A DNA stretch of 64,000 nucleotides from an uncultured Gemmatimonadales bacterium (GCA_963798845.1 CAWCUS010000002.1:10073-74072), one strand, 5' to 3'; numbered from the stretch's first letter, positions 24,687 to 53,913 are shown. The notes: generated by a model not told the origin, from the sequence alone. Program-made: numbers and translations.

Positions 24687-24823
24687 CCACCCGTCAGGCA
24701 ACGCTTTCCGGCGCCTGCGCGTCCGAGGTTCGGGAAGGCGAGTGACCCCGATCCGCGCGACGGGGTAGACCACGAGGCCGGCGACCCGGCCGGCCCGGCA
24801 GACACAACGAGGAAAGCAGGCAC

Positions 24824-39095: not shown

Positions 39096-39198
39096 GCGCC
39101 GGGCCACGCCGCTTCGAATCCGGCTCCGCCGGGCGGCGCCGGGACGCGCCGCTTCGAATCCGGCTCCGCCGGGCGGCGCGGGACGCGCCGCTTCGAAA
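39095..39198. repeat. Tandem repeat, ~2.6 copies of a 40-bp GC-rich hairpin-forming unit, starting at the glgB stop codon
   Basis: Units at 39095, 39135 and 39175 (partial): GGCGCCGGG(CCA|ACG)CGCCGCTTCGAATCCGGCTCCGCCGGGC. Each contains a CCGGC-tcc-GCCGG hairpin and outer GCGCCGC/GCGGCGC arms. Confidence 0.8.
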
Positions 39199-39275
39199 GC
39201 GAGCGGAGCGAGCGTGCGTGGCTCACCTGGCGCGAGGACATCAACCTGCCTGGGCCTTTCCAGGCGCAAGGACAC

Positions 39276-41879
39276 ATGAACGACCAGAAACCCCGTTACC
39301 TCTGCATCCACGGGCACTTCTATCAGCCGCCCCGCGAGAACCCGTGGCTGGAGGCGATCGAGCGCCAGGACTCGGCGTTCCCGTACCACGACTGGAACGC
39401 CCGCATCGACGCTGAGTGCTACGGCCCGAACGCGGTGTCCCGGATCCTGGACGACATGGGCAGGATCCGGGAGCTGGTGAACAACTACGAGCGCATCAGC
39501 TTCAACTTCGGGCCCACGCTCCTGCACTGGATGGAGGACCACGCACCGGCGACGTACCAGGCCGTGCTGGACGCCGATGAGCGCAGCATCGAGCGGTTCA
39601 GCGGCCACGGCTCCGCGCTGGCGCAGGTCTACAACCATGTCATCATGCCTCTCGCGAACGGCCGCGACCGGCGCACGGAGGTGATCTGGGGGATCCGCGA
39701 CTTCCAGCACCGGTTCGGGCGGAGGCCGGAGGGGATGTGGCTGGCGGAGACGGCCGCGGACATCCCGACGCTGGAGGCCCTCGCGGAGCACGGGATCCGC
39801 TTCACCATCCTGGCGCCGCACCAGGCGGCGGCGGTCCGCCCGCTGGCGAGAGCCGCGGCGGCGAGCGGAGCCGGCGTGCCCTCGGAGTCAGGGCCGTATG
39901 CGCCATCGAAGGGTGGCGACAATGGGGCGGGAGGGGATGGGAGCAGTCCCGAAGGGGAGTACCTGAACGACGCCGCTGGGGCCGGTGCCCCCCAGGGTGG
40001 GGATGCCGCGAGCGAAGCTCCGTGGCAGGATGTGACGGGGGCGAGGATCGACCCCACCCGCGCGTACCTTTGCCGTCTGCCCAGTGGTCGGGAGATCACG
40101 CTCTTCTTCTACGACGGTCCGGTCTCCCGCGCAGTGGCGTTCGAAGGGCTCCTCCGCAGCGGTGAGACCTTTGCTTCACGGCTGATGGAGATGTTCCAGC
40201 CGGATCGCGACTGGCCGCAGCTCGGGCACATCGCCACCGATGGGGAGACTTACGGCCACCACCACCGGTACGGGGACATGGCGCTCGCCCGCGCGCTCCA
40301 GGCGATCGAGCAGCGCCGGGACGTCCAGCTGACGAATTACGGAGAGTACCTCGAGCGGCATCCGCCCGTGCACGAGGTTCGGATCCTGGAGTCGACGTCC
40401 TGGAGCTGCTCGCACGGGGTGGACCGATGGAGAGCGAACTGCGGCTGCAACACGGGCGGGCGCCCGGAGTGGACGCAGGAGTGGCGCGGTCCGCTGCGCG
40501 ACGCGCTGGACTGGCTGCGGGACGAGCTCGCGCCGCGCTATGAAGCGGCTGCGTCGGAGCTGGTGGAGGATCCGTGGGCGGCGAGGGACGACTACATCAA
40601 TGTCATCCTGGATCGGGAGCCGGAGGTGATCGACGCCTTCCTCGAGAAGCACGCGTCGCGGGACCTGGACTTCCTCGAGCGTGTCCGGCTGACGAAGCTG
40701 CTGGAGCTCCAGCGTCACGCGCTTCTCATGTACACCAGCTGCGGTTGGTTCTTCGATGAGCTTTCGGGGATCGAGACGGTGCAGGTGATCGAGTACGCCG
40801 CGCGGGTGCTCCAGCTGGCGGAGGATGCGCTGGAGTACCGGGTGGAAGAGCCGTTCCTCCAGGAGATGCAGGACGCGGTCTCCAACATTCCCGAGCAGGA
40901 GAACGGCCGAGCGATCTATGACAGGTCGGTGCGCGGTTCGCGCGTGGACCTCTCGGAGGTGGGTGCGCACTTCGCCATCTCGTCGCTGTTCGGCGACGCC
41001 GCGGAGCAGACCCGGGAGTACTGCTACGACATCGACGTGGCGGACGTGGACCAGCAACAGGCAGGGCGCGCGCGCCTCGCCACGGGGCTGATCACCGTGA
41101 CCTCGCGGGTGACCAAGGAGGTGGCAGTCCTCAGCTACGGCGTGCTGCATCTGGGCGACCACACCATCCACGCGGGCGTCCGCCCCTTCATCGACGCCAA
41201 CGCCTTCGACGCCATGCGGGAGGAAGTGACGGCGCCGTTCGAGGCGGCGGAGTTCACGGAGACGATCCAGACTCTGGACCGTCACTTCCACAATTCGACC
41301 TACAATCTCCGCTCGCTCTTCCAGGACCAGCGGCGGCAGGTGCTCGATCAGATCATCCAGTCGACGCTGGGCGACGCGGAAGGGGCGTACCGCCAGGTCT
41401 ACGAGCGCAACGCGCCGCTGATGCGGTTCCTGCACGACCTTTCCATCCCGATGCCGGCCGCCCTTTCACTGGCCGGTGAGTACGTGATCAACACGAGCCT
41501 GCTCCGGGAGGTCTCGAGCGTGGACATGGACGCAGACCGCGTCCGCTCGCTGCTTCGCGACGCCCGCCGCCGGGAGATCATGCTGGACCGGGAGGGGATC
41601 GGGTTCGCGCTCCAGGGCACACTGGAGCGTATGGCGCTCGAGCTGCTGGCGGAGCCGGACGAGCTGCCGCTGCTGGAGCGGCTGGAAGCCGCGACGCTCC
41701 TTGTGAAGGAGTCGCCGTTCGACGTCAATCTGTGGACCCTGCAGAACGCGCTCTACGACCTGCGGCGCGACCACTCCGGATCCGTGCGGGCGAACGCGGA
41801 CGCGGGTGACGCGCGGGCGAAGCGCTGGCTGACGCATTTCCGCCCGCTTGTCGAAGCGGTGGGCGTGGCGTTCCCCTAG
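39276..41879 (+). CDS. Glycoside hydrolase family 57 protein with a DUF3536-type C-terminal region
   Basis: 867 aa. YLCIHGHFYQPPRENPW, NFGPTLLHWM, HVIMPLA, GMWLAETA and ATDGETYGHH. A low-complexity insert spans ~39846-40022. Confidence 0.85.
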   Translation: MNDQKPRYLCIHGHFYQPPRENPWLEAIERQDSAFPYHDWNARIDAECYGPNAVSRILDDMGRIRELVNNYERISFNFGPTLLHWMEDHAPATYQAVLDADERSIERFSGHGSALAQVYNHVIMPLANGRDRRTEVIWGIRDFQHRFGRRPEGMWLAETAADIPTLEALAEHGIRFTILAPHQAAAVRPLARAAAASGAGVPSESGPYAPSKGGDNGAGGDGSSPEGEYLNDAAGAGAPQGGDAASEAPWQDVTGARIDPTRAYLCRLPSGREITLFFYDGPVSRAVAFEGLLRSGETFASRLMEMFQPDRDWPQLGHIATDGETYGHHHRYGDMALARALQAIEQRRDVQLTNYGEYLERHPPVHEVRILESTSWSCSHGVDRWRANCGCNTGGRPEWTQEWRGPLRDALDWLRDELAPRYEAAASELVEDPWAARDDYINVILDREPEVIDAFLEKHASRDLDFLERVRLTKLLELQRHALLMYTSCGWFFDELSGIETVQVIEYAARVLQLAEDALEYRVEEPFLQEMQDAVSNIPEQENGRAIYDRSVRGSRVDLSEVGAHFAISSLFGDAAEQTREYCYDIDVADVDQQQAGRARLATGLITVTSRVTKEVAVLSYGVLHLGDHTIHAGVRPFIDANAFDAMREEVTAPFEAAEFTETIQTLDRHFHNSTYNLRSLFQDQRRQVLDQIIQSTLGDAEGAYRQVYERNAPLMRFLHDLSIPMPAALSLAGEYVINTSLLREVSSVDMDADRVRSLLRDARRREIMLDREGIGFALQGTLERMALELLAEPDELPLLERLEAATLLVKESPFDVNLWTLQNALYDLRRDHSGSVRANADAGDARAKRWLTHFRPLVEAVGVAFP

Positions 41880-41980: not shown

Positions 41981-43297
41981 CTACCGGAACGACAGCGCGA
42001 GCCCGAGCGCCGCCAGGGTCTGGTCGCCGAAGTCGTCGTGCCGGGTCGCCGCGGCGCCGTTGATCTGGAACGCGCCGAGATGCACCCCGAGCCCGCCGGC
42101 GAGCTGATATCCGCCGGAGACGGCGGATACGCCAGCCTGGAGCGGAAGGAAAGGTAGGATGGTGAGCTCGGCCCCGAGGCCGGCGTGGGTGCGCGCGCCG
42201 ACGTGCAGGTCGTCGCCGAAGGCGTGCCTCAGGTCTCCCGTGACCGTCAGATAGGGGAGCACTCGGGCGGCAGCACCGGCGGCGAGCACGGGCGAGAACG
42301 TGAACAGGTCGTCGATCCGGCGAGCGACGTCGCCGGGGAGCGGCCCGTCGCCCGGCACCAGGTCGAAGCTGGTATAGGACGTGTCGGCCGTCCACACCGC
42401 CGCGCCCGCCCGATACTCCACGTTCGACGTGTCCCACTCGAAGGTGTTGAACAGGTTCTGGAGGACGACGCCGGCCGAGAAGATCCCGCCCTGCCAGGCC
42501 GCGCCGACGTCCATCCCGACGCCGCGCCCGTTGTCGAAGAACTGGCTCTCGCCGGCCTCGCGGGCGCTGTCCGAGAGGGGCGAGCTGACCACCGGGAAGT
42601 GGATGGTCACGGCCACCGGGTCGCTGGTGATGCTGCCTCCCTCCTCCTGTCCGGAGATGAAGAAGTTGCCGACCGTGTACTTCAGCGTGACGCCCAGGGC
42701 GAAATGCTGGTCGGGTAGTGATCCCAGGCGGAGCGCCAGCGGAGCTGCGAAGCTGGCGGCGATCGTGCTCGTTCCCGCCATGTCGAATCGGGACCCGGCG
42801 AGGGTGTAGTCGCCCGGCTCACCCGAGAGGCCGGCGTTGCCGAACAGGAGCAGCTCGGCGACGTCCGGGGCGAGATTGATGCGCCCGCGGAGACTGGTGG
42901 AAGCGGACAGCGCGAAGTGGCCGGCGCTGAACGCCACGTAGGTGACGTCGCCGCCGAGGTCACCCTTCTCGCCGCCATCGCCGCGGATGGCGTCGAGCCA
43001 GGCGAGCTTGACGTCCCGCGGAATCAGCTCGCCTCCGTAGTCGGCCAGGTCACCGGTTGTCACGGGCCCCACGCCGACCATGCCGACGATAGGGATCACC
43101 GTGACGGAGGTCTCCGGGTTGTCCGGCATCCCGAGCCCCGCCGGGTTCCAAGCGGGCGCGGAGAAGCCGCGGGCGAGGGCCGTGTAGTTTTCGCCGAGGC
43201 CGAGGGCGCGAGCCGAGGGGTTGCCAACCTGGGCGCTGGCGGCGGCGGGCAAGGCAAGGGCGAGCGCCGCGGCGGCGCCGAAGCAGAGAGCGCGCAT
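41981..43297 (-). CDS. Putative outer-membrane beta-barrel protein (PorV/PorQ-like N-terminal motif, unverified)
   Basis: 438 aa. Signal peptide MRALCFGAAAALALALPAAASAQ, then GNPSARALGLGENYTALARGFSAPAWNPAGLG. Gly-rich and beta-rich throughout. The start overlaps the stop of the upstream lipoprotein gene. Confidence 0.6.
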   Translation of the reverse strand: MRALCFGAAAALALALPAAASAQVGNPSARALGLGENYTALARGFSAPAWNPAGLGMPDNPETSVTVIPIVGMVGVGPVTTGDLADYGGELIPRDVKLAWLDAIRGDGGEKGDLGGDVTYVAFSAGHFALSASTSLRGRINLAPDVAELLLFGNAGLSGEPGDYTLAGSRFDMAGTSTIAASFAAPLALRLGSLPDQHFALGVTLKYTVGNFFISGQEEGGSITSDPVAVTIHFPVVSSPLSDSAREAGESQFFDNGRGVGMDVGAAWQGGIFSAGVVLQNLFNTFEWDTSNVEYRAGAAVWTADTSYTSFDLVPGDGPLPGDVARRIDDLFTFSPVLAAGAAARVLPYLTVTGDLRHAFGDDLHVGARTHAGLGAELTILPFLPLQAGVSAVSGGYQLAGGLGVHLGAFQINGAAATRHDDFGDQTLAALGLALSFR

Positions 43298-44355
43298 CAG
43301 CCAACCTCCGCCGTGTCGCCAATCAGGAGCACAGCGTTCAGCTCGATCGCCACACGGATCCTGTCGGTCGGGTGAAGCGTGACGGACCCCGTCTGGCTCG
43401 TGCCCGTTCCGGTGGCGGTGATCCGAACGTCCGGGCTCGACAGCAGACTGCGGAGCTGCTCCGGGGTGAAGTCCACCCGCACCTGCTGCTCGCCCGGCTG
43501 GAGCGGCACGGTCCTGCGGATGGTGCCGTCGGCCACGCCGAAGTCGAGGACGAGGGAGCCGGACACCGCCAACGGGTTGTCGGTCGACAGGATCAGCGCC
43601 CCCGACTGGACGTGGCTCACGATGGTCGAGTCCACGTCCAGGTTCGCGGTCTGGCTGTACGGCCCGAACGCGCGCGTGTCCAGGGGCACCGTGGCGCCGG
43701 AGAACTGCAGCGTTCCGGGCGACAGCGTGACCTTCAGGCCGTCATCCGCGCCGACGCTCACCGGGCCTCCGGCGGGCGAGTACACGATCACGTCGAAACC
43801 GAGCTGCCCGGTGACCGTGGCGGGCTCCAGCTCGAGCGACGGACGGAGCGTGTCCGCTGCCGTGAAGCGCGCGTCCGCCCCGTCGATGCTGTCCTGCGCG
43901 ACCAGAACGCCGTCGCTGGTCACGCGCACCACGACATAGCCGTGCCCGGTCGCGCCGGGCGGCGACAGAGGATCGAACTCCAGCGTGTGCGTGATGGCCA
44001 TGGCCACCGACCCGCCGGCCACCTCGGCGGAGACCAGGTCGGTGGCCAGCGTGGTGGTGGCGGTGAGCGTTTGGCGGAACTGCGGTTTCACGGGCAGGGT
44101 CCCGGTCCCGGGGCACAGCCCGCCGCACAGGCTGGCGAGGGACACCGACACCGCAGTGCCGGGATAACTCACGACGAAGCGGCTGCTGTCCGGGCTCAAC
44201 CCGATGCCGTCCGGCAGGAAATCGGCCGTGCCGACCGTCACCGAGTCGAGCGCCACCTGCCATTCCTGCTCGAGGAGCGGCGCCTCGGTGGGAACATCGC
44301 ACGCCACGGCGAATGCGGCGGCAGCTGCGAGCGTCGCGAGGCATCGTCGCGTCAT
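43297..44355 (-). CDS. Hypothetical lipoprotein (352 aa, beta-rich, no recognised domain)
   Basis: The Met at 44355 gives MTRRCLATLAAAAAFAVACD (lipobox). AGGAG is upstream. Ser/Thr/Val/Gly-rich. Confidence 0.6.
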   Translation of the reverse strand: MTRRCLATLAAAAAFAVACDVPTEAPLLEQEWQVALDSVTVGTADFLPDGIGLSPDSSRFVVSYPGTAVSVSLASLCGGLCPGTGTLPVKPQFRQTLTATTTLATDLVSAEVAGGSVAMAITHTLEFDPLSPPGATGHGYVVVRVTSDGVLVAQDSIDGADARFTAADTLRPSLELEPATVTGQLGFDVIVYSPAGGPVSVGADDGLKVTLSPGTLQFSGATVPLDTRAFGPYSQTANLDVDSTIVSHVQSGALILSTDNPLAVSGSLVLDFGVADGTIRRTVPLQPGEQQVRVDFTPEQLRSLLSSPDVRITATGTGTSQTGSVTLHPTDRIRVAIELNAVLLIGDTAEVG

Positions 44356-44418
44356 GATGGGTTCGGCTCCTGATCCGGATGTGTCGCGCCTGAAGAGCAT
44401 GCATGGGAGAGAGAGCAA

Positions 44419-44448
44419 ATGATAAACCGGTCGAGCCGGCAGCGTCAA
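44419..44448 (-). promoter_or_regulatory. Sigma-70-like promoter TTGACG-18 nt-TATCAT for the lipoprotein/barrel pair
   Basis: Read on the minus strand: cgcgTTGACGctgccggctcgaccggtTTATCATttgc, ~60 nt upstream of the 44355 start. Confidence 0.45.
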
Positions 44449-44505
44449 CGCGCGACCGGGGGGCGGGGGGTGGCTTCGGGCAGCAGCAGACGGGCGACTC
44501 GGTGG

Positions 44506-45042
44506 TCAGCGAGGCGGCGCGACTTCACCCCACGACGACGGCGAGGTCCCGGGCTCGCCGGCGATCCATACCCGCCGGCCGACGAGCGCCCGGAGCCCGG
44601 CCGGAGCCTCGCCGAACCGGACGCGGTGGCCGTCGCCGGTGGCGAGCACGGCGGCGCCGCCATCGAGCTCGAGGACGCCGTCGACGACGGGCATGTCGGC
44701 CACCTTCTCGACCCGGAACCATCGGACGCGCAGCTCGTCGTCGCGGCGGTCGCCGACCACGACCGCTTCCGCGCGGGAAAGGGAGAGGAGCGAGTCGGCG
44801 ACGGGGCCGGTGAGGCGAACGCGGGCGTCGTCGGTCCGCAACTCGACGCGGGGAAGCGGATCGGCGCCCGTGACCAGGATCATCCCGGAAAGCGTGTCCC
44901 GCGCCTGCGGCGCGAGCTCGGCGGGGCGGCCGCCGGCGCGGCAGCCCGGGGCCACGAGTCCCAGCGCACCGGCCAGGAGGAGGCCGATCACCGGACCGCC
45001 GGCGGGCCGGACCCGCGGGAAGGGAGGGCGGGGACGCATCAT
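44506..45042 (-). CDS. Hypothetical small lipoprotein (178 aa), translationally coupled to the upstream metalloprotease
   Basis: ATGATG at 45042/45039 overlaps the protease stop (ATGA). Lipobox LGLVAPGC. No recognised domain. Confidence 0.55.
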   Translation of the reverse strand: MMRPRPPFPRVRPAGGPVIGLLLAGALGLVAPGCRAGGRPAELAPQARDTLSGMILVTGADPLPRVELRTDDARVRLTGPVADSLLSLSRAEAVVVGDRRDDELRVRWFRVEKVADMPVVDGVLELDGGAAVLATGDGHRVRFGEAPAGLRALVGRRVWIAGEPGTSPSSWGEVAPPR

Positions 45043-47868
45043 TGCACCCTCACGATGGCAAGGCCGAGGTTGGAGGGCGTGCTGCCGCCCGAGGGGGAGA
45101 GGATCTGGAGCAGCTGCCCGCCGGGGAACGCACCGGAGAGCTCGAAGATCGAAGCGCTGCCGCCGCGCACGCCGCTCACGTCCACGGTGAAGTCGCCGAA
45201 GGAGAGCGCGTGGGTCGAGAGAGGCCACGGCGTGGGGTAGTTGCTGGCCACGCTGGAGTTCGCGTAATCCTCGTGCATGCCGTCGAAGATGTCGCGCGTG
45301 TCCCAGCCCGGGAGGCCGAGCGCGGCGCGCTGCGGCGAGACGCCCGATGGGTGGTCGTCCACGGCCATGGCCAGGCTGAAGTCGGCCAGGAGGTCGCGGA
45401 AGCTGCGCCCGGTGCGGGCGATGATGTTGGCCACGCCGGTGGCGTACCGTTCGTCGACCATGGCCTTGATGAACTGGGCTTCATCCCGCCCGGACTGGTC
45501 GATCGCCCAGCGGACGAAGAGCCAGCCGCTGCCGTAGAAGGACCAGTCGCCGGATACGGCGCGGCCCAGTGGAGAGAGCCCCTCGATGCCCTGGTAGTAC
45601 GTGTTCAGCCCAGCGAAGTGGTTCCCCATGATGAGCGGATACGGGTCGCACTCGGGCCAGTTGGGGCCGACCCGGCGCTCGCAGTAGATGCTCTCGTGAT
45701 AGCCGACGTTGGACGTCCGGGTGAAGCCGAACAGAGCGCGGGCGTAGTACTCCTCCGCGAGCCTCGCCGTGGACTCCTCCAGCCACTGCTCCTCCCAGTT
45801 GGCGGTTCCGCTGCCCGCGGCCACCAGCTTGTGGGCGTACGAAGTGATGTGCTTGACCTCGTGGATGACGGTGGACCTCATCCCCCAGCGCCATGCCAGG
45901 ATCGAGTTGCCGTCATAGCCGCTGCTGGGGTCCGTGGGCACGCGGCCGTAAAACATTCTCCGTGGCATTGCTCGCGGGGCACTGGATCCGGGTGAAGAAG
46001 TCTCCGGAGAACACGAAACCTTCCACGCCCGCGGTGAAGTCGTTGACGTTCTTCGAGAAGAGCATGAAGAACCGGCCATCGCCGTCCAGGTGGCTGTCGT
46101 AGACCAGCGGGTCACCGAAGTACTGCAGGAGCACCGGGTACATGACCTGATCGAACTCCTGTCCGAGCCTCGCCCAGGCCGTGTCCATGGTGCCGGCCAG
46201 CGGGGCGGCCGTGTCCTCCCAGACGACCCCCTTCGTTCCCGAATAGGCCACGCGCGCCGTGACCGTTGCGTAGTCGCTGCACAGCTGGTCTCCGTCGATG
46301 TTCGGGATCCGGAACGTGCGGACGTCGCCCGGCTGCGGTGCGGTGGCCGACGCAGTGGCGCGGGCCGAGACCGCCCCGTCGGCGGACGTCTGAATCCGCG
46401 TCCCCGGCCACCCCAGCGTGCGCAGCAGCCGCTGGTTCGCGTCCAGCATCCGGAGGTGCCCGCGGGCTTGGGGGTTGTCCGGGAGCGTGACCGCGGCAGG
46501 CTCGATGCTGAGGAAGCGGCGGGCGCCAGCGCCGGCCGCGCGCAGAGCCGCGCCGGGGGCGTCGGCGGTGCCCTTGAGCTCGAACCCGGTGAACACGCTC
46601 AGCGACGGGCTGGCGTTGAACACGGTTGCGACGTAGTGCCCGTCCGCCGTGAGCTCGTTGCACGCCGCGGCGCCGCCATGGAAGACCACCGACTCGCCCA
46701 CTGCGAGGGCGTGGCGCTCCGCTCCGGCCACGGGGTGCGCCAGCGTGGCCGCGAGGTCGTTGACCGAGACCACCACGTCCATGTCCGTCTGCGGGCCGCA
46801 CGGGAACGCGCCGGGCGCGGGCATGACGGCGCGGATCTCGGTGCTGGTGGCGCTCTGGACGGTGGCGGGGATGCCGCCCACGGTGACCGCGATCGCGGAC
46901 AGGCTCGAGGAGAAGCCAGTGCCCGTGATGGTGGCCGTGTCGCCCGCGCCGAGCACGGCGGGGAGGATGGCCGAGATCTCCGGCTTCGGGCCGGATCGCA
47001 CGCGCGCGTTCGCCTCGGCGGTGAACGACCCGGCGCTGGCGGTGATCACGGCGTCGCCCGGGCCGATCCCGCGCACGGTGCCCCCGGCGTCCACCGTGGC
47101 AACGCTCTCATCGGAGCTGCTCCAGGTGGTGGCCATGGTGGTGTCCACGGCGTTGCCCCGGGCGTCGGCCGGCGTCGCCGTCATGTTCACCGAGTCGCCG
47201 GTCGTCAGCGCGGGCGCGGGCGGGTCCAGGCGCAGCCCGGTCACAACCTGGTCGACGACGACCCGCGCGGTGTCGGTGAGCGGACCGTTCACGACCACGA
47301 TCAGGGCGCTCCCCTCTGCACGCGCCACGACCGTCCCGGCGTTCACGCTGGCGACTTCCGGCGCGGTCGAGATCCAGGTCAGCCCGGAGGTGGACGTGTG
47401 GTTGTCGTAGCTGTCGCGGCCGTCCGCGTGGATGTGGAGCGTGTCGCCCAGGGAGGTGAGGGTCGTGTCCTGAATGTCCAGGACCACGGCCGCCGCCGGA
47501 CCGGGGCTGACATACGTGTCGAACACGGCCTGGAGTGACCCCACCGTGGCCGTGAGCTGCTGCTGTCCGGAGACGGTGCCGAGCGTCCAGCGGGTGGCCG
47601 CCACCCCGCGACCGTCGGTGGCGCCGCGGGAGGGGGTGGCGCTGCCGGCTGTCGCGCTCCACGACACCTCCACGCCTTCCACCCCGCGCCCGTCCTTGTC
47701 GGTGACGGTGATGGCGACCGAGTCGACCATGCCGCCCACGACGAGACCGCCCGGGATCGCGCGCTTCTGGATGGAGGCGGGCGGACCGGAGCTGGGGCCG
47801 GTGCTGTCGCACGCCGACAGGAGCACGACCCCCGCGAGAAGGGTCAGGCCGAGAGCCGCACTGCGCAT
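45039..47868 (-). CDS. Lipoprotein zinc metalloprotease (HExxH) with N-terminal Ig-like (Big_2-type) repeats, interrupted by a 1-nt frameshift near a T4 run (45950-45953)
   Basis: ORF 45913-47868 carries lipobox LLSAC, repeated Ig-like modules, an IPT-like module and the first part of the catalytic region, ending CPASNATEN. ORF 45039-46115 continues in the +1 frame with (M)FYGRVPTDPSS and STVIHEVKHITSYAH. Confidence 0.7.
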
Positions 47869-47941
47869 GGAAGTTCCTCTGGTTCCGCTGGGATCCTGCG
47901 GCGCACGGGGGCGCCTCCCGGAAGAATGTAGAAGGACGATA

Positions 47942-47980
47942 GCCCCCGGCGGTGGGCAGCGGAAGGCCGCCGCCGGGGGC
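47942..47980 (-). terminator. Hairpin terminator candidate after the M14-like gene
   Basis: Minus strand: GCCCCCGGCGG-17 nt-CCGCCGGGGGC (11-bp stem), 9 nt after the TAG, followed by a moderately T-rich tract tatcgtccttctacattcttcc. Confidence 0.5.
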
Positions 47981-47988
47981 GGGACCGT

Positions 47989-50583
47989 CTACATGGCGCC
48001 GCCGAGGAAGACGGCGTTGGCGAAGAGCGGGAGCAGCCCGCGCCACATCGCGCGGAAATTCGGGTCGCCGGTGAAGGCGATGAGGCGGCCGGAGCCGAGG
48101 CCCTCGGTGAAGAGGTACGGCGTCCCGGCCACGCGGGCCGGGATCTCGGGCCAGAGGTAGCCGGCCAGGCGGAGTCGGTCCTCGTCGGCGTAGCGGAGCA
48201 CGACCTCGCCGGGCCGCGCGTCGTCGGGCGCCTGGTAGACGCGGCTGCCGAAGAGAAGAACCGGAATCTCCCGATCCTCGATCCCCGCCATGATCGGAGA
48301 GAGCGTGTCGGCAACGGTGCGCAGGATGGCGCCCGGCACGGAAGTCGGGAGTGGCGCCCCGGTCTCGCCCTCGGCCGGCTCCGGCTCGGGCCGCGCGGTC
48401 AGCCGGGAGAACCCGTCCGCGGAGGCGAGCCAGGCGGTCGCGGCGTCCAGCGTGATGAGCGTGCCGCCGTTGCGGACCCAGGTGCGGAGCGCGTCCGCGC
48501 CGTGGTCGCCGAGAGCCGAGCCGAAGTCGAACGCGGACGGCACGACCACGACGTTGAAGTCGTCGAGGGCCTCGAGGAGGTCCGGCAGCTCGATGCGCGT
48601 GACGGGAAAGTCGAGGAGCTGGTCGAACGTGAACCAGGTGGCCCCGTAGGAGCTCGAGCTCACCGCGTCGCCGGCCACCAGCGCCACGCGCGGGATCGGG
48701 ATGGACTGCACGCTGTTGCTGCCCAGGTCGGTGCCGCTCTCCACCAGGGCGTTGTTCACCGGAACGACGCGCGCGCGCGTGGCTTCGCCCGCCCGCGCCA
48801 CCAGGGCGTGCACGTCTCGCCCGGGGTTCCGGTTCACCACCACGACGAAGGCGCCACGCGGGAAGTCCCCGCCGGGGACGGTGAACGAGCGGGGGGCGAA
48901 GCGCACCCGTACACTGTCGGCCAGGAGCCGCGCGAGCATGCGCAGTCCGCTCTCGCTGCCCGGCTCGAAGGCGTAGGCGTACCCGGCGCGGCCGGGTGGG
49001 GCGGGAGCGGCGGTCTCCGGCGGGACCTCGCCCGTCGGCTGCACGGTTTCCGGCGTCCACCACGCGTCGACCCGGTAGAGGAAGGGGAGCGCCCAGCCGG
49101 TCATGTCGTAGAAGCGGTCGCCCATCCCCGCTTCGCGCCGCGCAAGCTCCTCCTCGATGAACGCCGGGTCGAAGGCGGGATCGGGCTCCAACAGCGTCTT
49201 CGCGAGGGTTCCCTCGGGCTGCGAAAGGTCGACCACGTAGGCGCCCGCGTCCACGCGCACGCGGCCCGCATGCTGATCGCCGTAGCGGGTCGCGCGGCGC
49301 AGGTCGACCGGGGCCGTGGTGCGCTTCACCTCGATGTCGTTGCGGCGCAGCACCGTCACCATGGAGTCTGCCCGGCCATCGGCGTCGCGGGCGAAGATGA
49401 GCGTGCGCATGGGGGCGTTCGCGTTGCCGCGGATGGACGCCTGGCGGAAGGCCAGGAAATCGCCCACGCGCTCGGCGCGGTAGCGGGCGGCGGTGAGCAG
49501 CGTCGCCCGGCTGGTGGTGTAGTGGTGCTTCGCCGCGTCCATGAGGGTGAGGAGGGAGCCGTCATCGCGGCGGATCGCCCCGCCCTCGCTGGAGCCCTGC
49601 TCGTAGGTCATCCCGATGGCGCCGCTGTAGAGCGGCCACGAGGGGCCGTAGCCGGGGAAGAACTCGTCGTAGCCCTCGCGGGTGAAGAAGCCCCAGCCGT
49701 GCTCCGCGAACGCCGCGGCGTTGGCGCGCGAGAAGCGCTGCCACCCCTTGCGGATGAGGTCGGAGACATTGGCGTTCACAGGCGCCATGGGCGGAGCGAA
49801 GAAGTACGTGGAACTGGACCCCATCTCGTGCAGGTCCGCCGCTACGTGCGGGTACCACTTCCGGAACACGGCCATCCGGCCCTGCGTCTCCGGGTTGTCG
49901 TGGACGATCCAGTCCCGGTTCAGGTCGAACAGGTAGTGGTTCGTCCGCCCGCCGTGCCAGTCGTGAAAGTGGACCACCGCGCGGGGGTACGGGTCAGGGC
50001 CGAAGCGGCCCAGGTCCCACATCACCTGCTGCACGTGCCGCTCGTGGCCGTCCGGGTTCTGCACCGGGTCGATCAGCACCAGGACGCTGTCCAGGATCAT
50101 CTTCGTGTCCGGGTCCTGACCGGCCGTGAGCTGGTACAGCGTGGCCATGGCCGCTTCCACGCCCGACGCCTCATCGCCGTGGACGGTGTAGCCGAGCCAC
50201 ACGATGGCGGGCGTGGACGCGACCGCCTGGCGCAGCTCCGCTTCCGAAGCGCCACGGGGATCCGCGAGCCGGTGGGCCAGCGCGTTGAGCTCATCGAGGC
50301 GACGCATGTTGGCCTCGGATGACACCGTGGCCAGCAGCACCGGTCGACCCTCCCAGGTCGTCGCCACCGTGTCCAGGCGCATGCGCGGACTCGCGCTCGC
50401 CAGCGCGGACAGGTAGCGCACCACCATGTGGTCGGGGGTGAAGCGGGTGCCGATCTCGTAGCCCAGCACCGACGCCGGGGTCGGGATCGAGGGATCGTAT
50501 GGCCCGCCCTCACCCAGCGCGTGCTGCGCGACGGCGGGAGCGGCGGAAACGAGGAGCAGGCAAAGGGCGAGGAGACGCCTCAC
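47989..50583 (-). CDS. M14 family zinc carboxypeptidase-like protein, secreted (864 aa), paralogue 1
   Basis: GTG start with GGAGG 6 nt upstream. Signal peptide ending AVAQ. HGDEASG (HxxE), NPDGHE, DLHEMG and MTYEQG. Long non-peptidase C-terminal half. Confidence 0.85.
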   Translation of the reverse strand: MRRLLALCLLLVSAAPAVAQHALGEGGPYDPSIPTPASVLGYEIGTRFTPDHMVVRYLSALASASPRMRLDTVATTWEGRPVLLATVSSEANMRRLDELNALAHRLADPRGASEAELRQAVASTPAIVWLGYTVHGDEASGVEAAMATLYQLTAGQDPDTKMILDSVLVLIDPVQNPDGHERHVQQVMWDLGRFGPDPYPRAVVHFHDWHGGRTNHYLFDLNRDWIVHDNPETQGRMAVFRKWYPHVAADLHEMGSSSTYFFAPPMAPVNANVSDLIRKGWQRFSRANAAAFAEHGWGFFTREGYDEFFPGYGPSWPLYSGAIGMTYEQGSSEGGAIRRDDGSLLTLMDAAKHHYTTSRATLLTAARYRAERVGDFLAFRQASIRGNANAPMRTLIFARDADGRADSMVTVLRRNDIEVKRTTAPVDLRRATRYGDQHAGRVRVDAGAYVVDLSQPEGTLAKTLLEPDPAFDPAFIEEELARREAGMGDRFYDMTGWALPFLYRVDAWWTPETVQPTGEVPPETAAPAPPGRAGYAYAFEPGSESGLRMLARLLADSVRVRFAPRSFTVPGGDFPRGAFVVVVNRNPGRDVHALVARAGEATRARVVPVNNALVESGTDLGSNSVQSIPIPRVALVAGDAVSSSSYGATWFTFDQLLDFPVTRIELPDLLEALDDFNVVVVPSAFDFGSALGDHGADALRTWVRNGGTLITLDAATAWLASADGFSRLTARPEPEPAEGETGAPLPTSVPGAILRTVADTLSPIMAGIEDREIPVLLFGSRVYQAPDDARPGEVVLRYADEDRLRLAGYLWPEIPARVAGTPYLFTEGLGSGRLIAFTGDPNFRAMWRGLLPLFANAVFLGGAM

Positions 50584-50678: not shown

Positions 50679-53360
50679 CTATCTCAACGTCGGCCCGAGG
50701 AACACCGCGTTGGCGAAGACCGGCATCAGGCCGCGCCACATGCCGCGGAAGTTGGGGTCGCCGGCAAAGGCGACGACGCGGCCCGCGCCCACTCGCTCCG
50801 TCCACAGGTACGGGCTCCCCGCCACGCGCTCGGGCACTTCGGGCCAGAGATAGCCAGCGATGCGAAGCCGGTCCGCGCCGGCGTAGCGCAGCACCACCTC
50901 GCCCGCGCGCACGTCGGCGGGGGCGGCGTAGATGCGGTCGCCGGAGAGCAGCACCGGTAGCTCCGCTCCGGCAACGCCCGCCAGCAGCGGAGACAGGGTG
51001 TCGGCCAGGGTCCGGACGATCGCGCCCGGGACGGAGGCGGGGAGCGGCGCGCCGCCATCGGCCGCCGGGGGCGGAAGCGGCGAGAAGCGGCCGAGCCCCG
51101 AGTCACCGGCGAGCCAGGCCGTGGCAGCGTCGAGCGTCACCAGCGTCCCGCCGCCCCGGACCCAGCGCTCGAGCGCGGCCGCCCCGTCCTCTCCGAGCAC
51201 GGCATCCAGGCGTGCGGTGGACGGGAGCACGACCACGTCGAGGTCGCCGAGGGCGCGGCCGAGACGTCCAGCCTCGACACGGGTGACCGGGTAGCGGAGC
51301 AGGCGGTCGAACGCGTACCACGCCGCGCCGTACGAGGAGGCGCTCACGCCTTCGCCCCCGACCAGCGCGACGCGCGAGACCGGGATCGTGACCACGCTGT
51401 TGCTCCCCAGGTCGGTGCCGGCGTCCACCAGAGCGTTGTCGATCGCCACGATCCGGGCGCCCGTGGCCGCAGCCAGCGCGCGCACCCGGTCGTGGATGGC
51501 GGAGCCGTTGCGACCCACCACCACCAGGAACGCGCCATCGGGGAAGTCGGCGCTCCCCACGCGGAACCCTCGCCGGGCGTGCCGCACCCGGACGCTGTCC
51601 GCGAGCAGCCCGGCGAGCATGCGCAGGGAGGCGTCGCTCCCCGGCGCGAACGCATAGGCGTAGCGGGCCGCGGCCAGGGGCGGCTCGACCGACCCCGCGG
51701 GGAGCGGTGCGAGCGCGGCCCGCTCCAGGGTCTCGGCCGTCGCGGGGGAGGCGCTCCACGCCAAGTACGCGGGCGGGGGCACGGGCCGGGCGCCCGTCAG
51801 GGCGCCGGCGGTGGCCCAGGCGCGGACGCGGAACGTGAACGGGAGCGACCAGGCGGTGATGTCGTAGAAGCGGTCGCGCTGACCGGTCCGGCGCGCTTCC
51901 AGCTCCTCCCTGATGAAAGCGGAATCGAGCGCGGCATCCGGCTCCAGGAGGGCGCGGGCGAGCCGACCCTGCGGCTGCGCGAGGTCCACCACCCACGCGC
52001 CGGCCGGCAGCGTGACACGGCGAGCGCGTGACTCGCCGTACGGAGTGGCGGTGCCCGTCGTCGCCTGCGGGAGCATGCCCACCTCGATCCCGTTCTCGAG
52101 CAGGACCCGTACGAGCGCGGACGCCCGGCCGCCGGCGCCGGGCTCCAGCACCACGGTCCTGAGCGGCGCGAGCCCGGCTTCCGTCACGGCCGAGCGGCGG
52201 AAGGCGGCAAAGTCGCGCACCCGGTCGGTCCGCAGACGGGCGGCGGTGACGAGGGTGGCCATGGCCGCGGTGTAATGGCGGCGTGCGGCGTCGGCAAGCG
52301 TGACGATGGTGCCGTCGTCCCGGCGAACGGCCCCGCCGCCGCTCGACGCCTCCTCGTACGTCATGCCGATGGCACCGGTGAGCACGGGCCAGGAGACGCC
52401 ATAGCCGGGGTAGAACTCGTCGTAGCCTTCGCGGGTGAAGAAGCCCCACCCCCGTGCGGCGAGGGCGTCGGCGTTGGCTCGCGCGAAGATGCGCCACCAG
52501 GCCTCGATCCCGGGGGTGACGTTCGGGTTGATCGGCTCCATCGGCGGCGCGAAGAAGTACGTGGAGCTCGAGCCCATCTCGTGCAGGTCCACGGCCACGT
52601 GGGGGTGCCACGCCGCGAACGTCCGCATCCGCCCCAGCGTCTCGGGGTGCGTGTGGAGGAACCAGTCACGGTTCAGGTCGAAGAGGTAATGGCTCGTCCG
52701 CCCGCCTGGCCAGCCCTGCGTCTGCACCATCGCCCCGGGGTAGGGGTCGGGGCCGTACGCCCCGAGGTCCCGCAGCACATCCTGGACGTGCCGCTCGTGG
52801 CCGTCCGGATTCTGCACCGGATCGAGCAGGACCACGACGCTGTCCAGCACCATCAGCGTCTCCGCATCCCGACCGGCCGCAAGCTGGTAGAGCACGCCCA
52901 GCCCCGCCTCGACGCCCGACCCCTCGTTGCCGTGGATCGTGAAGCCGAGCCAGGCCACCGTCGGCGTGGTCGCCACGAGCCGATCCAGCTCGGTCCGGCT
53001 CTCGCCCCGTGGATCCGCCAGCTTGTCCGCCGCCTCGCGGATCGCGTCCAGCCTCGCCTGGTTCTCCGGCGACGTCACCGTCAGCAGGAGCACGTCGCGC
53101 CCTTCGTAGCTCACCGCCACCGTGTCCAGCCGCACGCGTGGGCTCGCTTCCGCCACTGCACGGGCGTAGCGCTCGATCAGGTGGTGCGGCGTGAAGCGCG
53201 ACCCGAGCCCGTAGCCCAGAACGGACGCCGGCGTCGGCACGGCCGGGTCGTACGGACCGGCCTGCGCCGGATCCGCCAGGGCGTGCTGCGCTACCGCGGG
53301 CGAGAACGCGCCGCTCGTGACGGCGGCCATGAGCAGAAGGACGGCGAGGATGCGCTGCAC
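50679..53360 (-). CDS. M14 family zinc carboxypeptidase-like protein, secreted (893 aa), paralogue 2
   Basis: GTG at 53360 with GGAGG 7 nt upstream; the track ORF extends spuriously to 53747. Signal peptide ending AVAQ. HGNEGSG, NPDGHE, DLHEMG and MTYEEA. Collinear with paralogue 1 along its whole length. Confidence 0.85.
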   Translation of the reverse strand: MQRILAVLLLMAAVTSGAFSPAVAQHALADPAQAGPYDPAVPTPASVLGYGLGSRFTPHHLIERYARAVAEASPRVRLDTVAVSYEGRDVLLLTVTSPENQARLDAIREAADKLADPRGESRTELDRLVATTPTVAWLGFTIHGNEGSGVEAGLGVLYQLAAGRDAETLMVLDSVVVLLDPVQNPDGHERHVQDVLRDLGAYGPDPYPGAMVQTQGWPGGRTSHYLFDLNRDWFLHTHPETLGRMRTFAAWHPHVAVDLHEMGSSSTYFFAPPMEPINPNVTPGIEAWWRIFARANADALAARGWGFFTREGYDEFYPGYGVSWPVLTGAIGMTYEEASSGGGAVRRDDGTIVTLADAARRHYTAAMATLVTAARLRTDRVRDFAAFRRSAVTEAGLAPLRTVVLEPGAGGRASALVRVLLENGIEVGMLPQATTGTATPYGESRARRVTLPAGAWVVDLAQPQGRLARALLEPDAALDSAFIREELEARRTGQRDRFYDITAWSLPFTFRVRAWATAGALTGARPVPPPAYLAWSASPATAETLERAALAPLPAGSVEPPLAAARYAYAFAPGSDASLRMLAGLLADSVRVRHARRGFRVGSADFPDGAFLVVVGRNGSAIHDRVRALAAATGARIVAIDNALVDAGTDLGSNSVVTIPVSRVALVGGEGVSASSYGAAWYAFDRLLRYPVTRVEAGRLGRALGDLDVVVLPSTARLDAVLGEDGAAALERWVRGGGTLVTLDAATAWLAGDSGLGRFSPLPPPAADGGAPLPASVPGAIVRTLADTLSPLLAGVAGAELPVLLSGDRIYAAPADVRAGEVVLRYAGADRLRIAGYLWPEVPERVAGSPYLWTERVGAGRVVAFAGDPNFRGMWRGLMPVFANAVFLGPTLR

Positions 53361-53520
53361 GGGCGTGCCTCCGTCAGCAGAGGTGTCGGCGGCGGGAAGG
53401 GCGCCCGGAAGGTACGCGGGCCGCAGTACGGCGGAAAGCCGTACGGGCGGGAGGCGGCGAGGCGCGGGACCCGGGGGCCGCGCTGGACCCGCCTGCGGTT
53501 GCGCACCCGCACGGTGACGA

Positions 53521-53913
53521 CTATGCCGTCTCGACCAGGGTGGCGACCCGGCTGCCGTGCTCGAGGGTGTGGTGGATCGTGCAGTGGCTCGCCACCCGGC
53601 GCGCTGCCCCGGCTCGGTCGTCGGGGAGGCCAGGCCAGTGGATCTGCATCCGGACCTCCGTGACGCGCACGGGCTCCCCGCCGATTTCCCACTCGATGCC
53701 GATCTCGAGCCCCTCCAGGGGCAGACCGGCGTGTTGCGCCCAGCCATGCAGCACGGAGAAGGTGCACGTGGCGAGGGACGCCGCGAAGAGGTGGAAAGGC
53801 GAGAGGCTCGCTTCGTTTGCCACGTCGAAGGCGAACGCCGGGTCGAGCCCGGAGTGCAGCCTGATTCGGTGCTCGGAAACGGTTTCGATCGTCACGGACC
53901 CCGTCTGGGGCAA
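53521..53913 (-). CDS. OsmC/Ohr family peroxiredoxin-like protein
   Basis: 130 aa with two conserved Cys contexts (LATCTFSVL and ASHCTIHHTL) typical of OsmC. Confidence 0.85.
   Translation of the reverse strand: MPQTGSVTIETVSEHRIRLHSGLDPAFAFDVANEASLSPFHLFAASLATCTFSVLHGWAQHAGLPLEGLEIGIEWEIGGEPVRVTEVRMQIHWPGLPDDRAGAARRVASHCTIHHTLEHGSRVATLVETA

What the first reader, a model, noticed from the sequence alone, without database searches (positions are those of the whole stretch)
41981..47868. Four-gene envelope cluster: Ig-repeat HExxH lipoprotein protease, two domain-less lipoproteins and a barrel-like protein, arranged as two translationally coupled pairs
Seen: all four genes are on the minus strand.
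- Pair 1 is the protease (47868-45039), joined by ATGA to a 178-aa lipoprotein (45042-44506).
- A 150-bp gap follows with a good TTGACG-18-TATCAT promoter.
- Pair 2 is a 352-aa lipoprotein (44355-43297), joined by a stop/start overlap to a 438-aa signal-peptide protein (43297-41981).
- Every product has an export signal: lipoboxes LLSAC, APGC and AVAC, and signal peptide AAASAQ.
- The protease has several Ig-like modules and a catalytic region with HEVKH.
- The 438-aa protein begins GNPSARALGLGENYTALARGFSAPAWNPAGLG. From memory this resembles the N-terminal motif of PorV/PorQ-type and related outer-membrane barrels.
- The two middle lipoproteins match nothing I recognise.

Inference: a dedicated surface or outer-membrane proteolysis or uptake module whose accessory parts are uncharacterised.
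Basis: partly seen in the sequence, partly recalled or inferred. Interest (0 to 1): 0.58.

Follow-up and report, generated by a model that had tools for sequence, protein, structure and literature searches.

The report
Two unrelated envelope gene pairs, adjacent
The four genes are real and all encode exported proteins, but they are two independent two-gene units that merely sit side by side: a frameshifted surface metalloprotease with a small partner lipoprotein, and a lipoprotein plus outer-membrane barrel pair of unknown function kept together in nearly all related sequences examined from this phylum.

Summary
All four minus-strand genes, their export signals, both start/stop overlaps and the TTGACG-18-TATCAT site are confirmed. 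The "protease" (47868-45039) is not one ORF. A single extra A at about 45957 splits it into 651-aa and 358-aa frames. Repaired, it aligns end to end with intact 927-941-aa homologues.

The organism is a Gemmatimonadota bacterium.

**Pair 1.** An Ig-repeat lipoprotein whose C-terminal HEVKH...E domain is a distant relative of MEROPS M30 (lugdulysin, E 1.6e-18). It is ATGA-coupled to a small DUF5818-like lipoprotein. This partner follows only 8 of 70 protease copies that have downstream sequence.

**Pair 2.** A lipoprotein with two predicted beta-sheet-rich halves plus a 14-stranded FadL/PorV-superfamily barrel (Pfam TraF_2/DUF5723). The pair is intact in 52 of 53 metagenome loci. None of the 80 loci fetched carries the protease.

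The four genes are neighbours only in the closest relatives, so a dedicated four-gene module is not supported.

Pair 2 resembles the BamH-BamG lipoprotein/barrel units recently described for this superphylum. Membership is unproven, and some tests argue against it. Functions of both accessory lipoproteins remain inferred. Interest is moderate.

The parts
45958..47868 (-). Protease gene, upstream frame: lipoprotein signal (VVLLSAC), Big_1 (47536-47724), Big_2 (47026-47244), TIG (46756-46983), and the start of the M30-like domain (from about 46338).
   Evidence: ORF 45913..47868. Pfam TIG 2.3e-9, Big_2 4.4e-9, Big_1 4.4e-7. Aligns with intact homologues P0001 and P0003.
45956..45957 (-). Frameshift site: one extra A (GAGAATG versus GAG-ATG in relatives).
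   Evidence: DNA alignment with L001, L013 and L014. The database holds only the truncated 651-aa product P0002 for this contig.
45039..45956 (-). Protease gene, downstream frame: the rest of the M30-like gluzincin domain and a C-terminal region. HEVKH lies at 45863-45849 and the putative third zinc ligand E698 at 45776-45774.
   Evidence: H669, E670, H673 and E698 are invariant in 14 homologues. The profile hits lugdulysin 7bb8/7bb9 at E 1.6e-18, aligning HEvkH with HEYQH and WLeE with WLNE.
44506..45042 (-). 178-aa small lipoprotein with a DUF5818-like C-terminal region. Its ATG overlaps the protease stop (ATGA).
   Evidence: Overlap read. The family has 440 cluster representatives. Its Cys is nearly invariant. 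23 of 46 members hit DUF5818. It lies directly downstream of the protease in 8 of 70 copies, 7 of them with the same 4-nt overlap.
44419..44448 (-). Sigma-70-like promoter candidate, TTGACG-18-TATCAT, in the 150-bp gap ahead of pair 2.
   Evidence: 1 found; shuffles give 0.2. Function not shown.
43297..44355 (-). 352-aa lipoprotein predicted as all-beta, with a conserved N-terminal tail C-[DEQ]-[VIL]-P-[TS]..P.W and a conserved CxxxC.
   Evidence: AF2 model pLDDT 84, pTM 0.71. Foldseek hits: 4h3w at 3e-9, then carbohydrate-binding and other beta-sandwich proteins. Family conservation. Upstream of the barrel in 52 of 53 loci.
41981..43297 (-). 438-aa outer-membrane barrel: signal peptide AAASA|Q, an N-terminal segment of about 40 residues carrying the WNPAGL motif, and 14 predicted strands.
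   Evidence: Pfam TraF_2 at 32.3 bits (cut-off 25) and DUF5723 at 24.6. AF2 pLDDT 87.6. Foldseek: FadL/TodX/TbuX 3e-12, BamG chains 3e-11 to 1e-8, PorV 4e-9. TGATG overlap with the lipoprotein gene.
47926..47994 (-). GC-rich hairpin between the upstream M14 gene and the protease gene. It could act as a terminator but has no U-run.
   Evidence: Fold -59.5 kcal/mol, z -2.6.

Best explanation
The stretch holds two independent two-gene operons of a Gemmatimonadota bacterium. They are neighbours only by local synteny.

**Operon 1.** It encodes a lipid-anchored endopeptidase of about 942 aa. An Ig-like stalk (Big_1/Big_2/TIG) carries a C-terminal zinc metallopeptidase domain distantly related to MEROPS M30 (hyicolysin/lugdulysin; HEVKH plus a Glu 24 residues on). 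It is translationally coupled to a small lipoprotein with a DUF5818-like region.
- Inferred: the protease degrades extracellular or surface proteins, possibly alongside the two M14 carboxypeptidase-like proteins encoded just upstream.
- Inferred: the small lipoprotein is a clade-specific helper on the periplasmic side, for example an inhibitor or chaperone.
- In this assembly the protease gene carries a 1-nt insertion. As written it would yield only the stalk. Because the downstream part is fully conserved, this is either an assembly error or a very recent inactivation.

**Operon 2.** It has its own promoter-like site. It encodes a lipoprotein predicted as all-beta and a 14-stranded FadL/PorV-superfamily barrel (TraF_2/DUF5723).
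- Inferred: the two form an outer-membrane complex in which the barrel docks the lipoprotein's conserved N-terminal tail, as BamG docks BamH.
- It is a housekeeping-type envelope unit conserved across the Gemmatimonadota sequences sampled, not a protease accessory.
For: **Shown**
- Frameshift and end-to-end homology with intact homologues.
- M30 relationship, with aligned HExxH and WLxE.
- All 80 genome loci are Gemmatimonadota.
- The 178-aa gene is coupled to the protease in 8 of 70 copies, 7 of them by ATGA. This holds even for a protease only 24% identical overall (L005).
- Pair 2 is adjacent in 52 of 53 loci, and no protease was detected in any of the 80 loci.
- Pair 2 sits in unrelated contexts in L009 and L010. 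In L008 it is split from pair 1 by two genes.
- The barrel model has 14 strands plus an N-terminal segment, with FadL, BamG and PorV as fold matches.
- The lipoprotein's N-terminal block is tied for the best conserved (0.67, against about 0.5 typical for the other blocks).
- A promoter-like site precedes pair 2.

**Literature**
- BamG is a FadL-family barrel that binds the conserved lipidated N-terminus of BamH.
- bamG and bamH are adjacent genes in several related phyla, including Gemmatimonas aurantiaca (GAU_1453/GAU_1452) (PMC12578637, PMC12611786).
Against: - No function was tested.
- The window protease does not reach any Pfam Peptidase_M30 hit; only 2 of 14 relatives do, and weakly.
- The inhibitor/chaperone role of the 178-aa protein is pure analogy. 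It has no solved relative and no structure model was made.
- In L013 and L014 the gap between the pairs may be as short as 4 to 15 bp (lower bounds from stop-to-stop ORFs), so read-through co-transcription cannot be excluded there.
- The 80 protease loci were chosen through the protease. Linkage seen from the side of the 178-aa family is therefore biased.
- The docking of the 352-aa lipoprotein to the barrel is inferred from gene coupling and conservation, not from a complex model.
Confidence: 0.7

Rival explanations
1. One dedicated four-gene surface proteolysis/uptake module: the barrel and both lipoproteins serve the protease.
For: - All four genes are on the same strand and all products are exported.
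- The order is conserved in L011, L013 and L014.
- M14 peptidase genes lie upstream.
Against: - Pair 2 occurs with no protease detected in any of the 80 barrel-anchored loci, and in L009 and L010.
- 77 of 80 protease loci show no pair 2, and 62 of 70 copies show no 178-aa gene.
- Two unrelated genes are inserted between the pairs in L008.
- Pair 2 has a separate promoter-like site.
Confidence: 0.08
2. Pair 2 is the Gemmatimonadota BamH-BamG pair, that is, the extra barrel and surface lipoprotein of the Bacteroidota-type BAM outer-membrane protein insertase.
For: - Published tables list adjacent BamG/BamH homologues in G. aurantiaca (GAU_1453/GAU_1452) and other related phyla.
- The barrel's fold matches BamG chains 9hjm_F, 9hiv_F and 9n2d_B.
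- The gene pair is almost always intact.
- The lipoprotein's N-terminal tail is conserved, as reported for BamH.
- Acidic residues follow the lipid Cys, as reported for the surface lipoproteins BamH-K.
Against: - By sequence the barrel falls in TraF_2/DUF5723 and is nearest PorV/PorQ. It gives no Toluene_X hit, whereas BamG is described as FadL/Toluene_X.
- B. thetaiotaomicron has a separate DUF5723 protein, BT_3413, besides BamG.
- No BamH chain appears among the top 50 fold matches of the lipoprotein.
- By my own hand count from a remembered E. coli FadL sequence (not a tool result), about 10 residues precede the GLG...NPA motif, much as in FadL, so no BamG-type N-terminal extension is evident.
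- Fold scores to BamG are no better than those to FadL transporters.
- GAU_1452/1453 could not be fetched for comparison.
Confidence: 0.3
3. Pair 2 is a FadL-type uptake channel for hydrophobic compounds, with a surface lipoprotein that captures the substrate.
For: - The best fold matches are the transporters FadL, TodX, TbuX and CymD.
- The NPA residues are kept: P52 and A53 are invariant and N51 is at least 90% conserved. A FadL NPA-deletion mutant is itself among the hits.
- The lipoprotein's fold matches include carbohydrate-binding modules and a Bacteroides surface glycan-binding protein.
Against: - No Toluene_X sequence match.
- Neighbouring genes vary between loci and suggest no catabolic pathway.
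Confidence: 0.2
4. Pair 2 belongs to type IX secretion: a PorV/PorQ/PorP-like barrel that anchors the product of the neighbouring gene.
For: - 54 of 55 family members hit NF033709 PorV/PorQ, and 36 hit PorV2.
- PorV is the only sequence-level PDB match.
- Type B cargo is known to be anchored by PorP-like proteins (PMC9143113, from the abstract listed). That the two are encoded by adjacent genes is from my own knowledge.
Against: - Scores are far below the cut-offs (29 against 90 bits; 18 against 325) and cover only the N-terminal motif.
- The partner is a lipoprotein with no type A or type B C-terminal secretion domain detected.
- No type IX secretion families appeared among the Pfam annotations of neighbouring genes, where available, in L001 and L008-L010, nor among the ten window ORFs scanned.
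Confidence: 0.1
5. The protease gene is a true pseudogene, and pair 1 is decaying in this genome.
For: - The frameshift is in the deposited assembly, and only the 651-aa product is on record.
- The site is not a long homopolymer.
Against: - The downstream frame has no further lesions and is 79% identical to L001, against 70% for the whole protein.
- The coupled 178-aa gene is intact.
- The very long contigs (898 kb) suggest a long-read assembly (my inference), and such assemblies are prone to single-base indels.
Confidence: 0.35

Closest known systems
Lugdulysin / hyicolysin (MEROPS M30; PDB 7bb8, 7bb9)
   Same: - The catalytic region is homologous by sequence (E 1.6e-18).
- The blocks SNxxEIFY, HExxH and WLxE align.
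   Different: - Here the domain sits at the C-terminus of a 942-aa lipoprotein behind three kinds of Ig-like domain.
- It falls below the Pfam PF10460 threshold.
- The host is a diderm (Gemmatimonadota), and a coupled small lipoprotein gene follows.
- Staphylococcal M30 enzymes are small secreted proteins (own knowledge).
BamG-BamH of the Bacteroidota-type BAM complex (PMC12578637, PMC12611786)
   Same: - A FadL-fold 14-stranded barrel plus a lipoprotein whose conserved N-terminus is the docking element.
- The two genes are adjacent in several related phyla, including Gemmatimonas.
   Different: - The barrel is TraF_2/DUF5723/PorV-like by sequence, not Toluene_X.
- The lipoprotein shows no detected similarity to BamH.
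- Association with BamA is untested.
PorV / PorQ (type IX secretion shuttle and anchor barrels)
   Same: - A shared N-terminal GLG...WNPA motif and the same barrel fold.
   Different: - Scores are far below the family cut-offs.
- No secretion-domain cargo and no type IX secretion genes were seen nearby.
FadL / TodX / TbuX hydrophobic-compound channels
   Same: - The best structural matches.
- 14 strands, an N-terminal plug-like segment, and the NPA motif.
   Different: - No sequence-family match.
- An obligatory upstream lipoprotein partner, which classical FadL genes lack.
AprA-AprI and PrtA-Inh (secreted metalloprotease with a small periplasmic inhibitor in the same operon; own knowledge)
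   Same: - A small exported protein encoded right after a zinc protease.
   Different: - No homology was shown.
- This is analogy only; the 178-aa protein is a lipoprotein with a DUF5818-like region.

Membership tests
MEROPS M30 / Pfam Peptidase_M30 (PF10460) | HExxH zinc-binding motif | tested here: met
   HEVKH. H669, E670 and H673 are invariant in 14 homologues.
MEROPS M30 / Pfam Peptidase_M30 (PF10460) | Third ligand Glu downstream (gluzincin), aligned with a characterised member | tested here: met
   E698 is invariant. WLeE aligns with WLNE of lugdulysin.
MEROPS M30 / Pfam Peptidase_M30 (PF10460) | Significant sequence similarity to a characterised M30 peptidase | tested here: met
   The catalytic-domain profile hits 7bb8_A at E 1.6e-18, and that is the only PDB family hit.
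MEROPS M30 / Pfam Peptidase_M30 (PF10460) | Reaches the Pfam gathering score | tested here: not met
   No PF10460 hit for the repaired window protein at E<=0.01. Only 2 of 14 relatives hit, best E 0.0012.
MEROPS M30 / Pfam Peptidase_M30 (PF10460) | Peptidase activity | not testable with these tools
   No experiment. The gene is frameshifted as assembled.
FadL-fold outer-membrane barrels | 14-stranded barrel with an N-terminal plug | tested here: met
   The AF2 model (pLDDT 87.6) has 14 long strands after an N-terminal segment of about 40 residues. Foldseek gives FadL/TodX/TbuX at 3e-12. That this segment sits inside the barrel was not checked.
FadL-fold outer-membrane barrels | NPA motif in the N-terminal segment | tested here: met
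   WNPAGL. P52 and A53 are invariant; N51 is at least 90% conserved.
FadL-fold outer-membrane barrels | Pfam Toluene_X sequence match | tested here: not met
   Only TraF_2 and DUF5723 were hit at E<=0.1. One of 55 relatives hit the FadL model weakly.
Pfam TraF_2 (PF13729) / DUF5723 (PF18990) | Reaches the gathering score | tested here: met
   TraF_2 scores 32.3, above the cut-off of 25. DUF5723 scores 24.6, below 26.8, for the window protein. Most relatives carry both families.
PorV/PorQ family (NF033709) and PorV2 (NF052325) | Reaches the NCBIfam cut-off over the full length | tested here: not met
   29.1 against 90 bits, covering residues 26-71 only; 17.7 against 325 bits. 54 of 55 relatives are similarly weak.
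PorV/PorQ family (NF033709) and PorV2 (NF052325) | Type IX secretion context or a partner with a C-terminal secretion domain | tested here: not met
   The partner is a lipoprotein with no secretion-domain model hit. No type IX secretion families appeared among the Pfam-annotated neighbours of pair 2 in L001 and L008-L010, where annotation was available.
BamG/BamH (Bacteroidota-type BAM) | FadL-family barrel encoded next to a lipoprotein gene | tested here: met
   Adjacent in 52 of 53 loci. Published BamG/BamH pairs are adjacent in Gemmatimonas and other phyla.
BamG/BamH (Bacteroidota-type BAM) | Conserved lipoprotein N-terminus | tested here: met
   The C-[DEQ]-[VIL]-P-[TS]..P.W block is tied for the best conserved. 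The property is described for BamH.
BamG/BamH (Bacteroidota-type BAM) | Barrel N-terminal extension of about 10-12 residues relative to FadL | tested here: inconclusive
   A hand count gives about 10 residues before the GLG motif, similar to a remembered E. coli FadL sequence (own knowledge, not a tool result). No structural check was possible.
BamG/BamH (Bacteroidota-type BAM) | Lipoprotein with a BamH-like fold | tested here: not met
   No BamH chain in the top 50 Foldseek PDB matches. No sequence hit either.
BamG/BamH (Bacteroidota-type BAM) | Orthology to GAU_1453/GAU_1452; binding to BamA | not tested
No experiment.
Pfam DUF5818 (PF19135), for the 178-aa protein | Reaches the gathering score | tested here: inconclusive
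   The window protein scores 19.9, below 27. 23 of 46 family members hit, best E 3.4e-8.

The most novel reading that the evidence does not exclude
Pair 2 is a phylum-wide, possibly essential outer-membrane machine of Gemmatimonadota, built from a PorV/DUF5723-type barrel and a lipoprotein that docks by its N-terminal tail.

Either it is the functional BamG-BamH equivalent made from a different branch of the FadL superfamily than in Bacteroidota, or it is a new barrel-tethered surface-lipoprotein display system.

Separately, the DUF5818-like small lipoprotein would be a new kind of cognate regulator (inhibitor or chaperone) of M30-like surface proteases.
Probability: 0.25. Interest if true: 0.6.

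Novelty: new variant of a known kind. Interest (0 to 1): 0.38.

Why it matters
**If pair 2 is a BAM-associated or similar barrel-lipoprotein unit**
- It would extend the 2025 discovery of extracellular BAM subunits beyond Bacteroidota.
- It would give a simple, tightly coupled two-gene handle for testing this in Gemmatimonas.

**If the 178-aa protein regulates the protease**
- It would be the first partner described for an M30-type enzyme.

**As it stands**
- The main value is corrective. The apparent four-gene module is two units.
- The protease call needs frameshift repair.
- Current annotations of the barrel as "conjugal transfer protein TraF" are misleading, because it is a FadL/PorV-fold outer-membrane protein.

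Tried and rejected
- **Family scans of the ORFs as called**. They missed the protease family because the domain is split by the frameshift.
- **Profile of the 178-aa family against PDB**. Only noise.
- **Profile of the 352-aa family against PDB**. Only de novo Ig-like designs.
- **Barrel profile against PDB**. Only PorV, at E 0.34.
- **Genome scan with the 12-sequence catalytic alignment**.
- **Looking for the repaired 942-aa protein in other assemblies.** The frameshift could not be settled.
- **Literature searches** for GAU_1452/1453 and for 4h3w/BDI_1231 gave nothing useful. Lugdulysin papers were not informative.
- **Programmed frameshifting** was rejected. The relatives are in frame at the site, and I saw no slippery sequence when reading it.
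- **A type IX secretion C-terminal domain on the protease or the 352-aa protein** was rejected. No model hit, and both have lipoprotein signals.

Full report
**1. Observation**

The claimed protease (47868-45039) appears as two ORFs in different frames: 45913..47868 (651 aa) and 45039..46115 (358 aa). The claimed span is 2830 nt, which is not divisible by three.

Reading the junction and aligning the DNA with three homologous loci shows one extra A in the window: GAGAATG against GAG-ATG. Joining 47868..45958 to 45956..45039 gives 942 aa. This repaired protein aligns over its whole length with an intact 941-aa homologue (P0001, 70% identity) and a 927-aa one (P0003, 53%). The database holds only the truncated 651-aa product for the window's own 898-kb contig.

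The other details hold:
- The ATGA overlap.
- The TGATG overlap.
- The lipoboxes and the signal peptide.
- TTGACG-18-TATCAT at 44448-44419, the only promoter-like hit in 6.5 kb against 0.2 expected.
- An independent short-read assembly (L171) carries an identical pair 2.

**2. The protease**

The N-terminal two fifths carry Big_1, Big_2 and TIG domains. Single-ORF scans gave nothing for the catalytic part, because the frameshift cuts the domain in two.

A profile of 14 full-length homologues hits lugdulysin (7bb8/7bb9, a Staphylococcus M30 neutral metalloprotease) at E 6e-18. A catalytic-domain-only profile gives 1.6e-18, with no other PDB family matched. The alignment pairs SNxxEIFY, HEvkH/HEYQH and WLeE/WLNE.

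H669, E670, H673 and E698 are invariant, as expected for a gluzincin. Pfam Peptidase_M30 itself is reached only weakly, and by only 2 of 14 relatives. This is therefore a distant M30-like lineage, not a member by curated thresholds.

The downstream frame is more conserved than the whole protein (79% against 70% identity to the L001 homologue) and has no further lesions. The relatives are in frame at the site. The frameshift is thus an assembly error or a very recent inactivation. It is not programmed.

**3. Who travels with whom**

A scan of one genome per species returned 80 loci, all Gemmatimonadota. I built HMMs for the four families and searched the six-frame ORFs of these loci.

| Measure | Result |
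|---|---|
| Protease copies found | 81 |
| Copies with at least 700 bp downstream | 70 |
| Copies followed by the 178-aa family | 8 of 70 |
| Of those 8, with the same 4-nt overlap | 7 |
| Loci with pair 2 nearby | 3 (L011, L013, L014), the closest relatives |
| M14 gene directly upstream | 5 of 54 |

The protease and 178-aa coupling recurs at large divergence. In L005 the protease is only 24% identical overall and the small protein 32%. Other protease genes stand alone (L002, L006) or overlap a different gene.

The reverse test used a metagenome scan with the barrel alignment, which gave 80 loci at 33-59% identity. Of 53 loci with at least 1 kb upstream, 52 have a member of the 352-aa family ending at the barrel's start on the same strand. 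None of the 80 has the protease or the 178-aa family.

Pair 2 also sits in unrelated housekeeping contexts:
- Among ruvB, queA and tgt in L009.
- Next to lepA in L010.
- In L008, a Longimicrobiales genome, a 430-aa gene and a mechanosensitive-channel gene lie between the two pairs.

The four genes are therefore two modules that are neighbours in one small clade.

**4. The small lipoprotein (178 aa)**

An exhaustive HMMER search finds 440 cluster representatives at E<=0.001, mostly 160-230 aa. The lipobox Cys is nearly invariant. By eye, the mature part looks like two similar Gly/Val-rich repeats. 23 of 46 members hit Pfam DUF5818, best E 3.4e-8; the window protein scores 19.9 bits against a cut-off of 27. 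No solved relative exists.

Its role is unknown. The tight coupling to a zinc protease, and the lack of acidic residues after the lipid Cys (unlike the protease, CDSTG, and the 352-aa protein, CDVPTE), suggest a helper on the periplasmic side. That would be an inhibitor or chaperone, by analogy with AprI/Inh. This step is inference only.

**5. The barrel (438 aa)**

*Sequence.*
- Pfam TraF_2 is passed (32.3 against 25 bits). DUF5723 is just missed.
- NCBIfam PorV/PorQ is hit at 29 bits against a cut-off of 90, and only over residues 26-71. 54 of 55 relatives behave the same way.
- The shared element is the GLG...WNPAGL motif. The NPA residues within it are shared with PorV. FadL has them too: a FadL NPA-deletion mutant is among the fold hits.

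*Structure.* An AlphaFold model from 55 sequences (pLDDT 87.6, pTM 0.84) shows an N-terminal segment of about 40 residues and 14 long strands. Foldseek against the PDB gives:

| Match | E-value |
|---|---|
| FadL / TodX / TbuX | 3e-12 |
| BamG subunits of Bacteroidota BAM complexes (9hjm_F, 9hiv_F, 9n2d_B) | 3e-11 to 1e-8 |
| PorV (8gl6_F) | 4e-9 |

TM scores are similar for all of these (0.42-0.50). Public names such as "conjugal transfer protein TraF" come from a misnamed Pfam family (own knowledge).

**6. The 352-aa lipoprotein**

The word-indexed search found only five relatives. Local HMMs then recovered the family upstream of every barrel checked.

The AF2 model (pLDDT 84, pTM 0.71) is all-beta after a disordered tail. 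Its best PDB match is the uncharacterised Parabacteroides protein 4h3w (3e-9). Carbohydrate-binding and other beta-sandwich proteins follow. TM scores are low (about 0.3). I read this as two beta-sandwich halves whose relative orientation differs from the matches, but model coordinates could not be inspected.

The block right after the lipid Cys, C-[DEQ]-[VIL]-P-[TS]-x-x-P-x-W, is tied for the best conserved in the family (0.67). A CxxxC pair is invariant in the five-sequence alignment.

**7. Comparison with what is known**

Two 2025 papers describe Bacteroidota BAM complexes.
- BamG, a FadL-family barrel, binds the back of BamA. It holds the conserved, lipidated N-terminus of the surface lipoprotein BamH (PMC12578637, PMC12611786).
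- BamG2 and BamH2 are in a putative operon in B. thetaiotaomicron.
- Supplementary Table 1 of the Nature paper lists adjacent BamG/BamH genes in several related phyla, including G. aurantiaca GAU_1453/GAU_1452.

Pair 2 has the same anatomy:
- The lipoprotein gene comes first, followed by a FadL-fold barrel.
- The two genes are almost always kept together.
- The lipoprotein's N-terminal tail is conserved.

I could not fetch GAU_1452/1453 to test identity. Several tests point away from membership:
- The barrel is TraF_2/DUF5723/PorV-like rather than Toluene_X.
- B. thetaiotaomicron has a separate DUF5723 protein besides BamG.
- The lipoprotein does not match BamH chains.

I therefore state that pair 2 works like a barrel-docked lipoprotein unit. 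I give about 0.3 to its being the Gemmatimonadota BamH/BamG pair, 0.2 to a FadL-type uptake channel with a surface receptor, and 0.1 to a type IX secretion anchor.

**8. Verdict**

The two coupled pairs and the barrel superfamily are right. A dedicated four-gene module is not.

The protease is a new, distant member of a known kind. Pair 2 is an uncharacterised but strongly conserved variant of a known kind of outer-membrane unit. Interest is moderate, at 0.38.

Noticed in passing
window 41981-43297, 47989-50583, 50679-53747 (minus strand): All three signal-peptidase-I substrates here expose Gln at +1: AAASA|Q, PAVA|QHALGEGGPYD and PAVA|QHALADPAQAGPYD. Q23 is invariant in 55 barrel homologues. 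This recalls the Bacteroidetes 'Q-rule' of pyroglutamate N-termini (own knowledge) and may extend it to Gemmatimonadota.
   Followed up: no
window 47989-50583 and 50679-53747 (minus strand): Two paralogous Peptidase_M14-like genes of about 865-900 aa lie directly upstream of the protease, and an M13 peptidase lies at 24746-26896. The region is rich in proteases. An M14 gene sits directly upstream of the M30-like gene in only 5 of 54 loci.
   Followed up: partly
window 29617-41879 (plus strand): An alpha-glucan metabolism cluster: GlgE, a TreS-maltokinase fusion, GlgB and GH57. In the syntenic locus L001, MalQ follows GlgB. It is syntenic with the closest relative and unrelated to the finding.
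   Followed up: partly
L010 8537-10988: Right after pair 2 lies a second pair: a non-homologous 353-aa lipoprotein plus a paralogous 454-aa barrel (E 1e-16 to the window barrel). Barrel-plus-lipoprotein units seem to duplicate as pairs.
   Followed up: partly
window 47926-47994 (minus strand): A strong GC-rich hairpin (11-bp core stem, -59.5 kcal/mol for the 127-nt gap, z -2.6) lies just after the M14 stop codon. It has no U-run.
   Followed up: partly
L049, L053, L055, L056, L059 (just after the protease stop): In some Gemmatimonadaceae the protease stop overlaps (ATGA) the start of a hydrophobic protein of about 200 aa, probably membrane-embedded, instead of the 178-aa lipoprotein. Three other loci (L021, L024, L062) have a conserved 93-aa protein there.
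   Followed up: no
L008 3581-4873: The 430-aa gene inserted between the two pairs in a Longimicrobiales genome has a signal peptide and a CxxCH motif (SCTLCH), followed by a beta-rich C-terminal part. It may be a haem-binding outer-membrane protein.
   Followed up: no
window 43297-44355 (residues 77-81 of the 352-aa protein): An invariant CxxxC pair (LCGGLCPG) in the lipoprotein family, suggesting a disulfide or a metal site.
   Followed up: no
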